NCBI GenBank assembly: GCA_964016885.1
Contig: OZ024742.1
Location: 262,260,001-262,324,000 of the forward strand
DNA length: 64,000 nt
Origin: Eledone cirrhosa
Taxonomy: Eukaryota
Direction: 5' to 3'
Shown here: piece after piece, positions 4,202-57,903 of the stretch
How positions within the stretch are numbered: position 1 is the first letter of the stretch
Layout: each line of letters starts with the position of its first letter
Notes under the pieces: generated by a model
Databases searched by the model: none
The model's input: only the letters and a program-made list of their open reading frames with translations
What the model was told of the DNA's origin: nothing
Position numbers and translations under genes: made by a program

Positions 4202-4590
4202 AAATTATGAAGTAAGAAGAAGTAAAAGACACAGATATATACCTATTTTTTATTCAAAGTCCCGACTGTACAGTTTCGCTGGTCAGTGTGCAACAATTTT
4301 ACGTTATAGAGGTGCAATACCGTTGTGAGGCAAACCAGCTTTTCAAGGGAACTCCTCAGAGAAAGAGCGCTTTCCAGACACGTTTGCAGCAAGTGAGAAA
4401 ATGGTGTGCCTCACAACGATATTACACATCTATAATATAAAATTGTTGCAGACTGACCAGCGAAACTGTACAGTCAGGACTTTGAAGAAAAAATAGGTAT
4501 ATATCTGTGTCTATTACTTCTTCTTATTTTATAATTTATTACATAGATCTGATGTCGAGTCAATATAATTATTTTGATTATTTTGTATCT
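4202..4590. mobile_element. Fold-back (inverted) Penelope-like 3'-end remnant
   Basis: Arms ~4202-4340 and ~4397-4537 are imperfect reverse complements. Each contains GAAACTGTACAGTC (hammerhead stem III and GUC site). Confidence 0.6.
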
Positions 4591-5139
4591 CGTAGTCATA
4601 GGGCAAAACTGGTTATGGTCGACACCACACACACTCACATGCTTGTGAAAATATATATATATATACGTGTGTATGTATGTATACAATTATATGTGTGTGT
4701 CTCTCATTATATATATAGACATATATATACATGATGAATCTCAATTCACTACTCAGCGAACCGTCTGATGACTGCATGGAGTCGACATGGACACAGCAAG
4801 CCATAATGAAGGCAATCGTCTAAGAGAGTAGACATTCCAATTAAAAACTGATACAGGGTGGAGAAGACTCTTAAGTTTGGTAAGCCAACTTCTTTAGTGC
4901 TAGTGACATGAACAATGTGCCCAGTCTACGTTGTCAATTGCTTGGTGATAGGAAGGGCACCAGCCTGTAAAACCCAGCCAAAATCATGAAAGACACGACA
5001 AATATGATTTCCACTAGTTGTCAACACAGATCTAACACTAGTCATGTTAGTGCTGTGCATGGTAGTGGGGTGGCTAGAGTAGTCATGTGTGAGAACCCCT
5101 CGACTGTCACCAAGCAACCACACAACCTATTTCCCTTTC

Positions 5140-7927
5140 AGGTACAAAGAGCCTCTAACTAAAGAAGTAACAACAACTACAACCACGCTAAAAATCTCAG
5201 GACTGCCACCCTCAATGTTGGTACCCTGAAAGTGGAACTATTAGAGAGAAGAGGAGTAGATATATGCTGTGTACAAGAAGTGAGATGGAGAGGTGCCTCA
5301 GCAAGACTAATTACAGGCAAGCAACTTAGATATAAACTCTACTGGATAAGAAATGACAATGGGGTAGGAGGTGTAGCATCTTACTAGCTGAGAAATGTAT
5401 AGAGAAGGTGATAGAGTAAGTGACAGAATCATCAAGATTAGATTAATAGACTGTAGGAAATAGACTGGAGACAATTACATCTACCTAAGCTCTGCAGGCA
5501 GGACTGGGTAAAGAACAAAAGGACAGGTTCTATGAGGAACTTTTACAGATAACTTCAAGTACTGATAAAGGTGACATCATCCTAGCAGGCAAATTTAACG
5601 GACATGTGGGACAGTACCAGGATGGATTCAGTGGAGTTCATGGTGGCTATGGTTATGGCTCAAGAATTGAAGAGGGATTGAGGACCCTGGAATTCTGTGA
5701 TGCAAATGAACTAAACAAATTTCAGGAAACCAGCCGACCACCTAATTTCATATCAATAAGGTGAATACACAAACCAAATTGATTACTTACTTGTTTGACA
5801 ACAAGTAATAAACATTAAGGCCTTCCCAGGGGAAGAAAGCACTGCCCAGCACATTATTAGTGACATCAAAAGACAACAAGACATGCAGGAAAATATGGAG
5901 ACAGGTTTAGAAAGGCCCTACGGGATGTACTTGATGAGAGGGATGACGAGCTAGATACATACAACGTTGAGGATAACAGGGAATTCTTACACAGCACCCT
6001 TTTGTGAACTACTAATAAGGGTTGTGGCTAGAGCAAAGCATCAGCCAGGCAGAGGGTGACCTGGTGGTGGAACAGCACAGTAAAGGCAGTCATTACAGCC
6101 AAGAGAGAGGCATGGAAAGACTGGAAAAATGGGGTTAGCAGAGACCAGTACCAAATAGCTAAGAAAGAAGCTAGGTGACAGGTATACATAACTCGGAGAG
6201 AGGCTGAAGTATGTAAATTTGCTAATGTCTTGAGCTGTGAGGATCAGAGGCGGAAAATGTTCTGTATTGCAAGGCAGTGTGTTAGCATGCATATATACAT
6301 ACACACATATATACATACATATATGGCTCAAGAAATGAACAGATATGAGGCTCCTGGAAAAACTAGTAACCTGGATAGTCAATCAGGTAATACAGGACAG
6401 AGTCATACATAGTAACTGGTGCAGCAGTACAATTACAAATTGCTACAAAGGCAAAGGTGATGATCTAGAAAGAGAAACTACTGTGGAATAAAACTAATGG
6501 ACCAAGTTATGAAAATCACAGACAGTGTTATAGCACAACTAATTAGGGAAAAAATCAAATTAGATGAGATGCAATTTGATTTCATGCCTGGGAAAAGTAC
6601 TACAGATGCCTTCTTAGTGAGGCAACTACAAGATAAGTTCCTAGCCAAAAATAAACCTCTATATTTAGCTTTTGTTGATCTAGAAAAGACTTTCACAGAG
6701 TACCTTGATCTATTATCTGGTGGTCCTTAAGGAAACTAGGTATAGAAGACTGGCTTGTGAGATCAGAGCAAGCCATGTACAGATGAGCTGTCAGTAAAGT
6801 GAGAGTAGGAAGTTAGTTTAGTGAGGAATTCAAGGTACTGGTAGGAGTTCATCAAGGTTCAGTTCTTAGCCTACTGCTGTTCATCATTGTTCTCCAGGTC
6901 ATAGCAGGAAAGTTTAAAACTGGCTATCCATGGGAACTTCTGTAAGCGGATGATCTGGGCCTTATAGCAGAATCTATAAAAGAACTAGAAAATAAGACTA
7001 TGGAAACGGAATTTGGAATCAATAACCTAGCTAAGACTAAAGTGTTGATAAGTAGGAAAGAGGACAAGACTCTGATTCCATTAGGGAAATTGCCATGTTC
7101 GATATGTAGAAAAGGAGTTGGTATAACCTCTATAGAATGTACACAATGCAGATCTTAGGTACACAAGATGTGCAGTGGGATAGCAGGTAAACTAACAAGA
7201 AGGGAAAACTTCATATGTAGTAGATGTTCAGGGAAAATTGTTTGTAGAAGTGTCAGTGATAGGCACATTTATCAAATGCAGGTAGGATCTATAGGGGTGG
7301 GTGATAGCTTCTGATACCTAGGTGATCAGATTACCAAGGGAGGAGGGTGCTCCGAGGCCATAATAGCTAGAATAAGGACAGGATGGAAGAAGTTTAGGGA
7401 GTTGCTTTCTCTGTTGACAATGAAGGGTTTCTCCCTTAACGAACGAAAGGTCGGTTATATGATGCCTGTGTGAGATGCGCAATGCTTCATGGTAATGAGA
7501 CATGGGCAGCAACTGTGGAGGATATGTAACGGCTGGAGAGAAATGAAGCAAGCATGCTCCGTTGGATGTACAATGTCAATGTGCATGAACGACCAATCAT
7601 AGATGAGTTAAGAGTGAAACTGTGTATAAGAGGGATAAACTGTAGTGTGCGGGAGAGGAGACTGCGTTGGTATGGCCACATGACGTGCATGAAAGATGAC
7701 AGCTGGATGAAGTACTGCCAGGAAATCCCGGTGGAAGGAAGATGCAGTAGAGATAGACCACGAAAATCATGGGCGGAGGTGGTGAGAACTGACCTCAGAT
7801 CACTGAAACTCACAGAGGAGATGACGAAGGGCTGTGACGAATGGAGAGATGCTGTGCTGAAGAGGACCCGTCCCACACTTGCAAGCAGGGAAAAGCGGAA
7901 GTAAAATGATGATGATGATGATGAAGA
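5140..7927 (+). mobile_element. Near full-length decayed RTE-clade LINE (family A-like)
   Basis: AP-endonuclease start (TATLNVGTLK, CCVQEVRW), RT motifs (MQFDFMPGKSTTDA, LAFVDLEK) and [10 protein letters not shown], with many stops and frameshifts. Ends ...GCAAGCAGGGAAAAGCGGAAGTAAA(ATG)n. Confidence 0.85.
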
Positions 7928-7994
7928 ATATATATATATATATATCAAAAGCATGTATATGTGTGTGTGTGTGTGTCTGTCTGTCTGTATGTAT

Positions 7995-56600: not shown

Positions 56601-57738
56601 CCATTTAGGTCGCCAGCAATAATTATATAGTCACTGTCGGTTATTTGGGAGGTAGTGAGCATCAGTGTCTCATAGAATCTGTCTTTTATAGTGCCGGGCA
56701 GTCCGGATTGGGGTGCGTACGCAGATATTACTGTCACAGTAGTTCTATTGAGGACAAGTCTTATTTTAATTATTCTGTCGTTCACTCTCTTTACGTCTAT
56801 TATCTTATCTGCCCACTTTTCTGCTACCATGATTCCTACTCCACCCAGCCCATTGTCATTTCCCACCCAGAAAAGCTTATAACATCGTTGTTTACCCACG
56901 ATGAATCTAGCAGACCCACCCCTCCATCTGGTCTCTTGAATACAACAAACATCGACCTTCTTACGTTCAAGCATTTCTACAACCTCGTTAGAGCGACCCT
57001 TTAAGGTGCCTACATTCATGGTACCAACTCTGAAGTTTGGGATTGCGTTTGGAGGTTGGGAGCGGTGGGGCACAGGGGGGGATGGGGGAGATGGGGCTAT
57101 GTTAGCCATCCGCGGCCGAAACAAAGAGGAGGAGTCCTTGCATTCTCGTCCATGAGGTGAATTTGTCTTCATCTTTGGCATTGTCACTGAGTGTCCAGAT
57201 TTTTTCGTTTTAACTCTCCAGAATTCCGTAGTCCATCCATCATATCGAAAGGCAACCAGGTAAGCGATAGCACAGGCCGCTGACTTATGATTGGCCCACG
57301 TAATAATGGTGGTGTGTGGGGGCGGGTGGGAGGGATATTGGGTAGTTAGAGAGAAGGTTAAGGTTTAAATAAGATCCCCGTATTTTGGGCATAATTTAAC
57401 AAGCATAAAACAATAATACAAGATTTCTTTTGAAAAATACGCTAGAATTATCGAATAGAAAAGCAAAGATTGTATTTTGGGAGAAATGATACAGAATGAA
57501 GAATGGACTAGGGAATTAAAATGGTGAGAAGAGTGAAGAAATATTTGTACGTTACATTACACCATGATAGCCTGTCTAGGGTAGGCGATTTTTGAGGTTT
57601 CGTACTTGCAGGATTTATTTTATATTTGGAGAGAGAGGAAGGGATTGGTGGCGAACCAGCATGATATAGAGGGGGGGGGGGTGAAGATAGGAGGGAGCAG
57701 AGGTTAAGAGTTTAAATAAAGTCCTCATATTTGGGGCA
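53656..57738 (-). mobile_element. Near full-length RTE-clade LINE (family B), frameshifted
   Basis: AP endonuclease (GTMNVGTL, CIQETRW, ISAYAPQ, IAGDLNGH; 56435-57187) and RT (YRGIKL, LAFVDLEKAFD, GVHQGSVLSP, YADDL; 54472-56349), then a 3' UTR with subrepeats and a (CAT)n tail at 53656. The 5' boundary is uncertain. Confidence 0.88.
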
Positions 57739-57750
57739 TGTATGTATATA

Positions 57751-57903
57751 TATATTTGAATAAAAAGGAAAAGAATGACTTCACTTGTAGTGTTAAATAA
57801 TTTGATTTAATTTTATATTATAAAATTAAATCAAATTATTTAACACTACAAGTGAAGTCATTCTTTTCTTTTTTTTCAAATATACCTACCTGTACCAAGG
57901 ATC
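57751..57903. repeat. 134-bp near-perfect palindrome with a 19-bp one-sided tail, between (TA)n tracts
   Basis: 57751-57817 is the reverse complement of 57819-57884 (centre 57818), with few mismatches. CCTACCTGTACCAAGGATC follows. Confidence 0.8.

What the first reader, a model, noticed from the sequence alone, without database searches (positions are those of the whole stretch)
4202..57903. One insertion grammar at seven scales: fold-back plus one-sided tail at (TA)n
Seen: inverted duplications next to TA-rich microsatellite at 4202-4590, 13566-13770, 13788-15448, 15464-21992, 48130-49292, 50250-50385 and 57751-57903. Arms range from ~34 bp to 3 kb, and most have a 20-60 bp extension on one arm only. 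Three encode PLE protein, one matches the PLE 3' end, and one has only a hammerhead motif; their sequences point to several different families. Inference: fold-back with a fixed tail offset may be the default integration product of PLEs in this genome. Many anonymous palindromes or 'MITEs' at (TA)n would then be PLE footprints, forming a genome-wide source of hairpins.
Basis: partly seen in the sequence, partly recalled or inferred. Interest (0 to 1): 0.75.

Follow-up and report, generated by a model that had tools for sequence, protein, structure and literature searches.

The report
Penelope-like retroelement fold-back insertion scars
Six of the seven mirror-image repeats are insertion scars of Penelope-like jumping genes in TA repeats, a layout already in print that is likely made when both cut DNA ends copy the element's RNA from two different start points; it is ordinary biology, though very abundant in this genome.

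Summary
All seven inverted repeats exist. Six (F1 4.2 kb, F2 13.6, F3 13.8, F4 15.5, F6 50.3, F7 57.8) share one layout. Two copies of an element's 3' end sit head-to-head with tails outward. One arm ends flush at a TA-rich site; the other carries a fixed, family-specific extension. F5 (48.1 kb) is an old 74-79% palindrome with no tail.

Own-genome pattern searches show each family has two discrete ends. Pairs are (-,+) far more often than (+,-): 24:6, 30:0 and 17:0. In 21 of 24 pairs one arm is long and one short.

Families F2/F4, F3 and F7 encode RT plus C-terminal GIY-YIG, so they are canonical Penelope-like elements (PLEs). F1 and F6 have no coding partner shown. No hammerhead was found by Rfam, and only two of the seven encode PLE protein.

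The grammar is already published (Craig 2021; Frangieh 2024: both strands extended, two RT start sites bound the tail). This scan also noted it before on other DNA of this genome.

Possibly new here:
- both start sites lie on AUAU patches;
- a recurrent 388-nt perfect palindrome has its centre at 332 sites;
- there is about one such fold-back per 16 kb locally.

The parts
4202..4369 (-). F1 left arm, the tail-less (short) end. It abuts (TA)4 at 4193-4201.
   Evidence: Family short end ...TTTGTTA|(TA)n.
4370..4545 (+). F1 right arm, including a ~48-nt imperfect centre.
4546..4714 (+). F1 one-sided extension (tail). About 105 nt of unique sequence is followed by a TA/TG-rich stretch that belongs to the element.
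   Evidence: Homology to L092, L100, L099 and L105.
13546..13565 (.). (TA)10, left remnant of the microsatellite that holds F2, F3 and F4.
13566..13629 (-). F2 tail, 64 nt. It is homologous to the F4 tail and to the A-subfamily tail genome-wide.
13630..13768 (.). F2 palindrome, two ~68-nt arms with a 3-nt centre. It is a very short fold-back of the A subfamily of the F4-type PLE. The right arm ends flush at (TA)12, 13769-13793.
13794..14195 (-). F3 inverted arm. It is 3' UTR only, tail-less, and flush to (TA)n.
14196..15418 (+). F3 longer forward copy. It holds the endonuclease C-terminal fragment (14174-14415 by tblastn), the 3' UTR, and the right arm at 14956-15418.
   Evidence: Its C-terminal peptide is 98% identical over 48 aa to the end of the full-length ORF of L125; the same peptide ends the L124 and L125 ORFs, and those ORFs carry RVT_1 and GIY-YIG.
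15419..15448 (+). F3 tail, 30 nt, followed by (TA)9 at 15449-15467.
15466..18478 (-). F4 left copy, tail-less. Its ORF is 15982-18486 (-), 834 aa.
18479..21951 (+). F4 right copy. The 471-nt unique stretch 18479-18949 makes it the longer copy. Its ORF is 18474-21446 (+), 990 aa, with RT plus a CX4CxxC linker plus GIY-YIG.
21952..21992 (+). F4 tail, 41 nt, followed by (TA)16 at 21993-22024.
48169..49245 (.). F5, an old palindrome. Its arms are 48169-48314 and 49097-49245 at 74-79% identity. It has no one-sided tail and no PLE ORF, and its repeat family is unclassified.
50201..50288 (-). F6 one-sided extension, about 88 nt by family homology.
50289..50382 (.). F6 palindrome, two 47-nt arms at 83% identity. 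The right arm ends flush at TA-rich sequence.
57751..57884 (.). F7 palindrome, two ~66-nt arms at 96% identity with a 1-nt centre. The left arm is flush to a TA run.
57885..57915 (+). F7 tail, homologous to the family's ~35-nt tail with its end replaced by (CA)n. It is followed by (AT)n at 57916-58542, which runs into an assembly gap.

Best explanation
Six of the seven structures are head-to-head (tails-out) double copies of the 3' ends of Penelope-like retroelements inserted in (TA)n, most likely made when both 3'-OH ends of one endonuclease break prime reverse transcription of the element's RNA from two different start sites.

Shown here:
- the layout;
- two discrete, family-specific ends in five families;
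- almost every pair combines one long end with one short end;
- arm lengths and loops vary;
- RT plus C-terminal GIY-YIG coding capacity in three families;
- in tandem copies the 'tail' runs straight on into the next unit's 5' UTR and start codon, so it is the stretch between the unit boundary and a second site 30-190 nt further on.

Taken from the literature, for a different PLE (Poseidon of Anolis): the purified protein cleaves and extends both strands and starts at two internal RNA sites that bound the tail.

Inferred:
- the same happens here;
- the two cDNAs are joined at their 3' ends, sometimes through microhomology such as GATC;
- the two start sites are chosen by pairing of the TA-repeat primer with AUAU patches in the RNA.
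For: Orientation. Tails-out (-,+) pairs against (+,-) pairs within 7 kb, among the first 100 exact-motif places of each family, are 24:6 for F2/F4, 30:0 for F3 and 17:0 for F7 (counted). Over all genome hits they are 7:1 for F1 (83 hits) and 3:1 for F6 (68 hits).

Two discrete ends:
- A subfamily: the tail is 59-64 nt (61 in 13 of the 16 A-subfamily pair arms with a measured tail), and in 19 of 22 short arms of the pairs the TA run starts 1 nt after the motif.
- F3 family: ~33-nt tail. F7 family: ~35-nt tail.
- F1: tail of at least 105 nt. F6: ~88-nt extension.

Asymmetry. Of the 24 F2/F4 pairs, 21 have exactly one long and one short end, 2 are unclear and 1 is long/long. That gives p=1.4e-4 against the 0.5 maximum expected if ends were lost independently. 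The same holds for 5 of 5 F3-family pairs among L051-L070 and 2 of 2 F7-family pairs, and for 10 of 10 further F3-family pairs.

Arms and loops. Arms are 26-1453 nt and loops 0-3075 nt. The loop is contiguous with the tail-less arm in 9 pairs and with the tailed arm in 4 pairs plus window F3 and F4. That fits two independent cDNAs.

Coding:
- P0001 has RVT_1 (E=2e-4) and the motifs CX4CxxC, VVYSIRC..C..YIGET.
- F3-family copies have RVT_1 at E=1.3e-8 and GIY-YIG at 29.5 bits, above the cut-off.
- The F7-family RT is 49% identical to the F3-family RT.
- The A subfamily is 56-70% identical to P0001.

The tail continues into the 5' UTR and ATG in tandem copies L022, L028, L058, L067 and L128 and L099, L105.

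In 264 kb around the window there are 4 head-to-head coding pairs and no tail-to-tail pair.

Literature: PMC8557442 (passages; section 11) and PMC11167929 (main text).
Against: - No experiment or read-level data for these elements.
- No coding PLE was linked to the F1 and F6 families. F5 does not fit.
- Perfect palindromes with a 0-3 nt centre need both cDNAs to stop at the same base, which two independent cDNAs do not predict without a defined RNA 5' end. These are F2, F6, F7, 4 of the 24 F2/F4 pairs, and the 388-nt F3-family form.
[quoted passage not shown] Here the sites sit on TA-like patches and the two ends of a pair differ.
- The canonical hammerhead of PLE pLTRs was not found.
- Pair counts come from the first 100 places on contig C1 (and on C2 for F7) and need exact motifs, so they are a positional sample and lower bounds.
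Confidence: 0.8

Rival explanations
1. Snap-back model. A single cDNA primed at one DNA end folds back on itself and copies itself, as in classical hairpin-primed second-strand synthesis. The second arm stops short of the tail.
For: - Perfect palindromes with centres of 0-3 nt: F2, F6, F7 and L013, L030, L031, L042.
- In window F3 and F4, and in L009, L035, L036 and L044, the unique loop belongs to the tailed arm, as this model requires.
Against: In 9 of 15 informative cases the loop belongs to the tail-less arm: L011, L018, L024, L032, L038, L039, L040, L048, L049. A snap-back from the tailed cDNA cannot give that. The model also has no reason for a sharply fixed stop 30-190 nt before the template end.
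Confidence: 0.1
2. Palindromic master copies. Some fold-backs, once formed, act as short non-autonomous elements and are copied as whole palindromes, so many small hairpins are amplified units rather than independent integration products.
For: In the F3 family, 5 of 30 pairs have exactly 363 nt between motifs. Seven of 10 fetched copies are 388-397-nt palindromes; five are exactly 388 nt, and the other three span 352-369 nt. All sit in different flanks. The 26-nt palindromic centre occurs at 332 genomic sites, with 0 in the control.
Against: The fine structure of the centre differs between copies (L142/L143, L148, L149, L150). That speaks for repeated formation near one point, such as a defined RNA 5' end with joining on GATC. 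Arms within a copy (97.4-100% in the five 388-nt copies) are about as alike as copies are to each other (97.7-99.0% to L142), which does not decide the question.
Confidence: 0.2
3. The small palindromes (F1, F2, F6, F7) are DNA-transposon MITEs of the Tc1/mariner (Stowaway-like) kind with TA target duplications.
For: They are short palindromes flanked by TA. This is a resemblance only; the defining features of MITEs are recalled, not taken from a call.
Against: - The arms are the 3' ends of RT/EN-encoding elements.
- Inner break points vary from copy to copy.
- One end carries a fixed extra sequence that the other lacks.
- The flanks are long (TA)n runs, not a TA dinucleotide.
Confidence: 0.03
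4. Secondary rearrangement or artefact. Solo insertions are later turned into palindromes by breakage and fold-back repair at hairpin-prone (TA)n, or the assembler created them.
For: (TA)n tracts are fragile and self-pairing (general knowledge, not from a call). F4's arms are 100% identical over 2554 nt, and an assembly gap lies in the (AT)n beside F7.
Against: Thousands of pairs have arms diverged by 0-25%, which an artefact would not give. A later repair event would not remove exactly the tail from exactly one arm in 21 of 24 pairs.
Confidence: 0.04

Closest known systems
Canonical EN+ Penelope-like element insertion structure: pLTR, inverted 5'-truncated copy and one-sided 30-40 bp tail (Craig et al. 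2021, PMC8557442; passages and section 11 read). That paper credits Evgen'ev & Arkhipova 2005 and Arkhipova 2006, which I did not read.
   Same: An inverted 5'-truncated copy sits head-to-head with a longer copy. The tail is at only one end. Partial tandems are present. Insertion is into (TA)n. A CX2-5CxxC linker precedes a GIY-YIG core that contains two cysteines.
   Different: - Tails here range from 30 to about 185 nt by family.
- No canonical hammerhead was detected.
- Fold-backs go down to arms of 26-70 nt that look like anonymous hairpins.
- Density is very high: 49,585 exact end motifs for one family.
Poseidon_Ac (PAc) of Anolis carolinensis, in vitro (Frangieh et al. 2024, Mob DNA 15:12, PMC11167929; abstract, main text and figure legends read).
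   Same: The tail lies between two alternative ends of genomic copies at the pLTR-ORF junction. The published cleavage and extension of both strands would give exactly the tails-out pairs seen here. The targets are AT-rich.
   Different: - In PAc the start sites lie 111-118 nt inside the ORF, in an AC-rich stem-loop, and are not homologous to the target. Here both sites lie upstream of the ATG and coincide with AUAU-type patches.
- PAc showed no strand difference in start site. Here the two ends of one pair almost always differ.
- PAc belongs to a different PLE clade (Penelope/Poseidon, which has no linker finger).
Hydra clade of C-terminal EN+ PLEs (Craig et al. 2021, section 11).
   Same: Aquatic-invertebrate host, (TA)n insertion, C-terminal GIY-YIG.
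   Different: The F4, F3 and F7 families have DKS or DKG rather than DKT, a CX4CxxC linker rather than CxCX5C, and keep the two cysteines in the GIY-YIG core. An unrelated neighbour ORF, L130:3204-5183, does carry ADKT and CxCX5C.
L1 twin priming (5' inversions of LINE-1). Recalled from general knowledge; no paper was read here.
   Same: The second DNA end primes on the RNA at an internal site and gives an inverted segment.
   Different: In twin priming the two segments are different parts of one RNA (an inversion, not a duplication). Here both arms carry the same 3' region.

Membership tests
Penelope-like elements (EN+, C-terminal GIY-YIG) | Reverse transcriptase with PLE N-terminal motifs (DKG; YGLPKxHK...LRPIV) | tested here: met
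   - RVT_1 scores: E=1.3e-8 for L125, 3.3e-6 for L128, 2e-4 for P0001.
- ADKG and FYG[IL]PKVHK...LRPI[IV] are present in the F3 and F7 families.
- P0001 has TDKS.
- The motif names follow Craig 2021.
Penelope-like elements (EN+, C-terminal GIY-YIG) | GIY-YIG endonuclease at the C-terminus of the same ORF | tested here: met
   - Pfam GIY-YIG scores 29.3-29.5 bits (cut-off 22.6) in L124 and L125.
- P0001 has no Pfam hit at E<=0.1.
- P0001 does align to that domain (27% over 84 aa, E=1.3e-4) and reads VVYSIRC..C..YIGET..R..H..E.
Penelope-like elements (EN+, C-terminal GIY-YIG) | Partial tandem / pseudo-LTR | tested here: met
   - L128 has a (+,+) motif pair around the ORF.
- L099 and L105 show the same for F1.
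- In L022, L028, L058 and L067 the tail runs on into the next unit.
Penelope-like elements (EN+, C-terminal GIY-YIG) | Inverted 5'-truncated copy and a tail at one end only | tested here: met
Penelope-like elements (EN+, C-terminal GIY-YIG) | Hammerhead ribozyme in the pLTR (typical of canonical clades, absent from Naiads according to Craig 2021) | tested here: not met
   No Rfam hammerhead family matched in the window, in F1 alone or in nine family loci.
Neptune/Nematis-type PLEs (linker finger) | CX2-5CxxC motif between RT and EN, plus CCHH in the EN core | tested here: met
   Read directly from the translations: C-TNRK-C-II-C in P0001 and C-DRPN-C-GI-C in L125. Both have two Cys between the GIY and YIG motifs, and His residues follow.
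Neptune/Nematis-type PLEs (linker finger) | Placement inside the clade in an RT phylogeny with reference sequences | not tested
Hydra clade PLEs | DKT instead of DKG; CxCX5C linker; CCHH absent | tested here: not met
   for the F4, F3 and F7 families.
MITEs of Tc1/mariner type | Fixed-length element with terminal inverted repeats and a TA target duplication | tested here: not met
   Arm lengths vary between copies. The ends are asymmetric. The defining features of MITEs are recalled, not taken from a call.
Hammerhead retrozymes / hammerhead repeats carried by PLEs | Hammerhead ribozyme in each unit | tested here: not met

The most novel reading that the evidence does not exclude
In TA-targeting PLEs, the two places where copying starts are set by base pairing between the frayed TA-repeat DNA end and two AUAU patches that bracket the tail. 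The two ends of one break must use different patches. Every insertion is therefore born as a lopsided palindrome, and aborted events seed on the order of 10^5 small hairpins in this genome. These include a 388-nt perfect palindrome class made from a short RNA with a defined 5' end.
Probability: 0.3. Interest if true: 0.55.

Novelty: new member of a known kind. Interest (0 to 1): 0.33.

Why it matters
The layout itself is textbook for PLE specialists, so the main value is for annotation. In this 3-Gb genome a large share of palindromes beside (TA)n are retroelement scars and should not be called MITEs, miRNA-like hairpins or assembly errors.

The numbers are large. One family has 49,585 exact end motifs, about half of them in pairs. 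In 264 kb, 17 lopsided TA-flanked fold-backs were found.

Two details could feed the open question of how PLEs integrate. First, nearly every pair is strictly one long end plus one short end. Second, both start sites coincide with AUAU patches, which differs from the only in vitro system published so far.

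Tried and rejected
- A DNA search of the own genome with 193 nt of the F4 3' end found nothing, not even itself. I switched to exact patterns.
- Hammerhead search with Rfam at four sensitivities found nothing.
- The snap-back model as the general mechanism is rejected by loop ownership.
- A left/right bias of the tailed arm looked striking in the first nine pairs (8 left) but vanished over 21 pairs (10 left, 11 right).
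- Link of F1 and F6 to a coding PLE: upstream homology in 16 loci each reaches only 540 and 314 nt. tblastn found only neighbouring, differently oriented PLE fragments. Walking upstream in F1 led into a tandem unit of about 590 nt without an ORF.
- 'Twin hairpins' before each end, a lead from earlier notes: RNA folds of the 3' regions of the A, C, F3 and F7 families showed no shared paired hairpins. The folds were dominated by the palindromes, so this is not a rigorous test.
- F5 family: only 10 pattern hits, all old, with no tail and no pairing apart from the window's own copy.
- I did not use the large protein searches, structure prediction or complex prediction. They would not change the verdict.

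Full report
**Setting**

The window is G000:C3:262260001-262324000 of a 3.0-Gb animal genome. An earlier scan note calls it octopus-like. It holds one assembly gap, N at 58543-58742.

**1. The observation**

A reverse-complement self-comparison finds all seven inverted repeats.

| Structure | Coordinates | Arm identity |
|---|---|---|
| F1 | 4190-4549 | 83% |
| F2 | 13625-13773 | 91% |
| F3 | 13787-14195 / 14956-15418 | 97-100% |
| F4 | 15464-18478 / 18950-21951 | 99.5%, with 2554 nt at 100% |
| F5 | 48185-48283 / 49134-49229 | 79% (74% over 152 nt) |
| F6 | 50289-50382 | 83% |
| F7 | 57751-57884 | 96% |

F2, F3 and F4 lie end to end, separated only by (TA)10, (TA)12, (TA)9 and (TA)16. They are three insertions into one former microsatellite.

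In F4 the two ORFs point away from the centre: 15982-18486 (-) and 18474-21446 (+). The 3' ends of the element therefore face outward.

Six structures have an extension on one arm only. F5 has none.

Only F4 and F3 encode PLE protein. No Rfam hammerhead family matched at any sensitivity tried.

**2. What the arms are**

The outer 21 nt shared by F2 and F4 occur 24,744 times forward and 24,841 times reverse in the genome. The reversed-pattern control gives 0.

Downstream of this motif, copies end in one of two ways:
- Short end: the TA repeat begins one base after the motif. This holds for 19 of 22 short arms of the pairs.
- Long end: a conserved tail comes first. It is 59-64 nt in the 'A' subfamily (61 in 13 of the 16 pair arms with a measured tail) and 46-60 nt in the 'C' subfamily to which F4 belongs.

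The F2 tail (13566-13629) and the F4 tail (21952-21992) are homologous to these tails. The tail is therefore element sequence, not target sequence.

The same two-ended pattern holds in the other families.

| Family | Exact motif hits in the genome | Tail or extension |
|---|---|---|
| F3 | 8,509 | ~33 nt |
| F7 | 710 | ~35 nt |
| F1 | 83 | at least 105 nt; by homology to about 4714-4729 in the window |
| F6 | 68 | ~88 nt |

The F5 family gave only 10 hits. They are old copies with no tail.

**3. Pairing**

The counts below are neighbouring motif places within 7 kb. For F2/F4, F3 and F7 they come from the first 100 listed places. For F1 and F6 they come from all genome hits.

| Family | (-,+) tails-out | (+,-) | p |
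|---|---|---|---|
| F2/F4 | 24 | 6 | 0.0014 |
| F3 | 30 | 0 | 2e-9 |
| F7 | 17 | 0 | 1.5e-5 |
| F1 | 7 | 1 | not computed |
| F6 | 3 | 1 | not computed |

Of the 24 F2/F4 pairs:
- 21 combine one long end with one short end.
- Two have a short arm and an arm my rule could not classify (L033, L037).
- One is long/long (L047).

If tails were lost independently after insertion, mixed pairs could not exceed one half. Seeing 21 of 24 has p=1.4e-4. The asymmetry is therefore made at insertion.

Further pairs with exactly one tail:
- 5 of 5 F3-family pairs among L051-L070 and 2 of 2 F7-family pairs;
- 10 of 10 further F3-family pairs.

The tailed arm is on the left in 10 and on the right in 11 of the 21 mixed pairs.

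**4. These are Penelope-like elements**

- **F4 ORF (P0001).** It has an RT (RVT_1, E=2e-4). It also has a C-x4-C-x2-C linker and a GIY-YIG core with two cysteines.
- **A subfamily.** Its protein is 56-70% identical to P0001.
- **F3 family.** Full-length copies (L124, L125) score RVT_1 at E=1.3e-8 and GIY-YIG at 29.5 bits against a cut-off of 22.6. The L125 ORF ends in the same peptide as the fragment inside F3 (98% identity over 48 aa), and the L124 ORF ends in the same peptide.
- **F7 family.** Its RT is 49% identical to the F3-family RT. A copy with a (+,+) motif pair around the ORF shows the partial-tandem (pLTR) form.
- **Clade.** By the motif criteria of Craig et al. 2021 these are canonical linker-finger PLEs (Neptune/Nematis-like), not Hydra. 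They have DKG or DKS rather than DKT, CX4CxxC rather than CxCX5C, and the core cysteines are present. No phylogeny was made.
- **F1 and F6.** I found no coding relative. F1 looks like a ~590-nt unit without an ORF that also forms tandems.

**5. What the tail is**

In copies where the tail is not followed by (TA)n, it runs straight on into a 5' UTR and a start codon. This is seen in L022 (A), L028 (C), L058 and L067 (F3 family) and L128 (F7 family). In F1 it runs into the next unit's body.

The tail is therefore the stretch between the unit boundary and a second site further into the next tandem unit. This matches Frangieh et al. 2024. In their Anolis Poseidon element:
- the purified protein cleaves and extends both DNA strands;
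- it starts reverse transcription at two internal RNA sites near the pLTR-ORF junction;
- the genomic tail is the sequence between those two sites.

Craig et al. 2021 already describe the rest of the layout.

**6. Mechanism**

Priming from both 3'-OH ends of one break puts the element's 3' end next to the target on both sides. That is the tails-out orientation observed.

Arms of 26-1453 nt and loops of 0-3075 nt fit two cDNAs of independent length that are joined at their 3' ends.

A snap-back of one cDNA predicts that the loop always belongs to the tailed arm. Among 15 informative cases it belongs to the tail-less arm in 9 and to the tailed arm in 6, window F3 and F4 among the 6. Snap-back is therefore not the general route. 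It may still explain the perfect small palindromes.

The remaining points in this part are inference.
- The short site always lies on a TA-like patch of the element: AATAT, AATATATA, AATATA or TATAATA.
- In tandem copies the long site does too: ATAT, TAT or AATAT.
- In the A subfamily both sites read AATATCG.
- This suggests that the TA-repeat primer pairs with AUAU patches. That would differ from the non-homologous initiation reported for Poseidon.
- The AT-rich context makes chance patches likely, so I give this reading modest odds.

**7. Scale**

I scanned 264 kb, the window plus 100 kb on each side.
- 17 of 94 inverted-repeat clusters have a TA run flush at one end and a TA run 14-220 nt beyond the other. 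Random placement gives 2.0.
- None is flush at both ends, against 1.3 expected. Some clusters are nested.
- Seven of the 17 belong to families shown here to encode PLE protein or hold such coding sequence. The rest are unassigned.
- Coding fragments form four head-to-head pairs and no tail-to-tail pair.

**8. Verdict**

The hammerhead claim and the count of coding copies are wrong. F5 does not belong with the others.

Details worth keeping:
- the near-obligate pairing of one long end with one short end;
- the AUAU patches at both start sites;
- tails of up to about 185 nt;
- a recurrent 388-nt perfect palindrome whose centre overlaps on GATC and occurs at 332 sites.

**Limits**
- There is no read-level or experimental evidence.
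- The pair statistics use exact motifs in the first 100 listed places.
- Supplements of the two papers were not consulted.

Noticed in passing
F3-family loci L142-L151 (G000:C1); centre motif genome-wide: A recurrent perfect palindrome built from the last ~190 nt of the F3-family 3' UTR.
- 5 of 30 pairs have exactly 363 nt between motifs (388-nt span).
- The centre reads GCTCTGATCAGAGC, as if two cDNAs ending at the same base were joined on the self-complementary GATC.
- The 26-nt centre occurs at 332 genomic sites.
- This suggests a short template RNA with a defined 5' end, or amplification of a palindromic master copy.
   Followed up: partly
L130:3204-5183 (-) (G000:C3:274484003-274485982): A 660-aa ORF with ADKT and a C-x-C-x5-C motif, the marks of Hydra-clade PLEs in Craig 2021. 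It has no Pfam hit at E<=0.1. Similar fragments lie beside several F1 and F6 family copies (L098, L099, L102, L104, L105, L122) and at window-relative -80053..-78071 as a head-to-head pair.
   Followed up: partly
window 13546-22024: Three independent fold-back insertions (F2, F3, F4) from three families sit back to back in one former (TA)n tract. Each is separated from the next by 19-32 nt of TA repeat, so the microsatellite is a repeated target.
   Followed up: yes
After a (TA)9 run comes a diverged tail in minus orientation. It is interrupted by a ~205-nt insert bounded by GGGTTAAAC-type inverted ends, followed by the diverged end motif.
   Followed up: no
window 54472-57364 (-), 58937-60723 (+), 61300-62286 (-): Non-PLE retroelement ORFs. 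One has an AP-endonuclease (Exo_endo_phos), RVT_1 (E=5e-25) and a PHD finger. Two further RT fragments are present, one of them followed by a PHD finger. They look like LINE-type elements with a C-terminal PHD finger.
   Followed up: no
window 57916-58542, 60749-61001, 62757-63997: Very long (AT)n tracts of 627, 253 and 1241 nt. The first runs into the 200-N assembly gap at 58543-58742, so its true length is unknown.
   Followed up: no
G000:C1:0.39-11.4 Mb (the 21 mixed pairs): The side carrying the tail is clustered along the chromosome. It is on the left in 8 of the first 9 pairs (0.39-3.0 Mb) and on the right in 10 of the next 12. Overall it is 10:11. This could be chance, and no test was made.
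   Followed up: no
tails of all five families: Every tail contains an ACAC-type stretch (CAACACACG, GTTACACC, CTCACACA, GACAACACAC, TTGACAC). This recalls the AC-rich stem-loop at the start site of Poseidon_Ac. It was not tested against chance.
   Followed up: no
L116, L121, L122, L132, L138; window about 49560-49760: A SINE-like repeat (GGCACAAGGCC...GGATGAAAGGCAAAGTCAACCTCGGCGGGATTTGAAC) is inserted next to several F5 and F6 family copies and occurs in the window.
   Followed up: no
window 26241-26924: A tandem repeat of a 147-nt unit, 4.9 copies at 73% match. It is unrelated to the finding.
   Followed up: no
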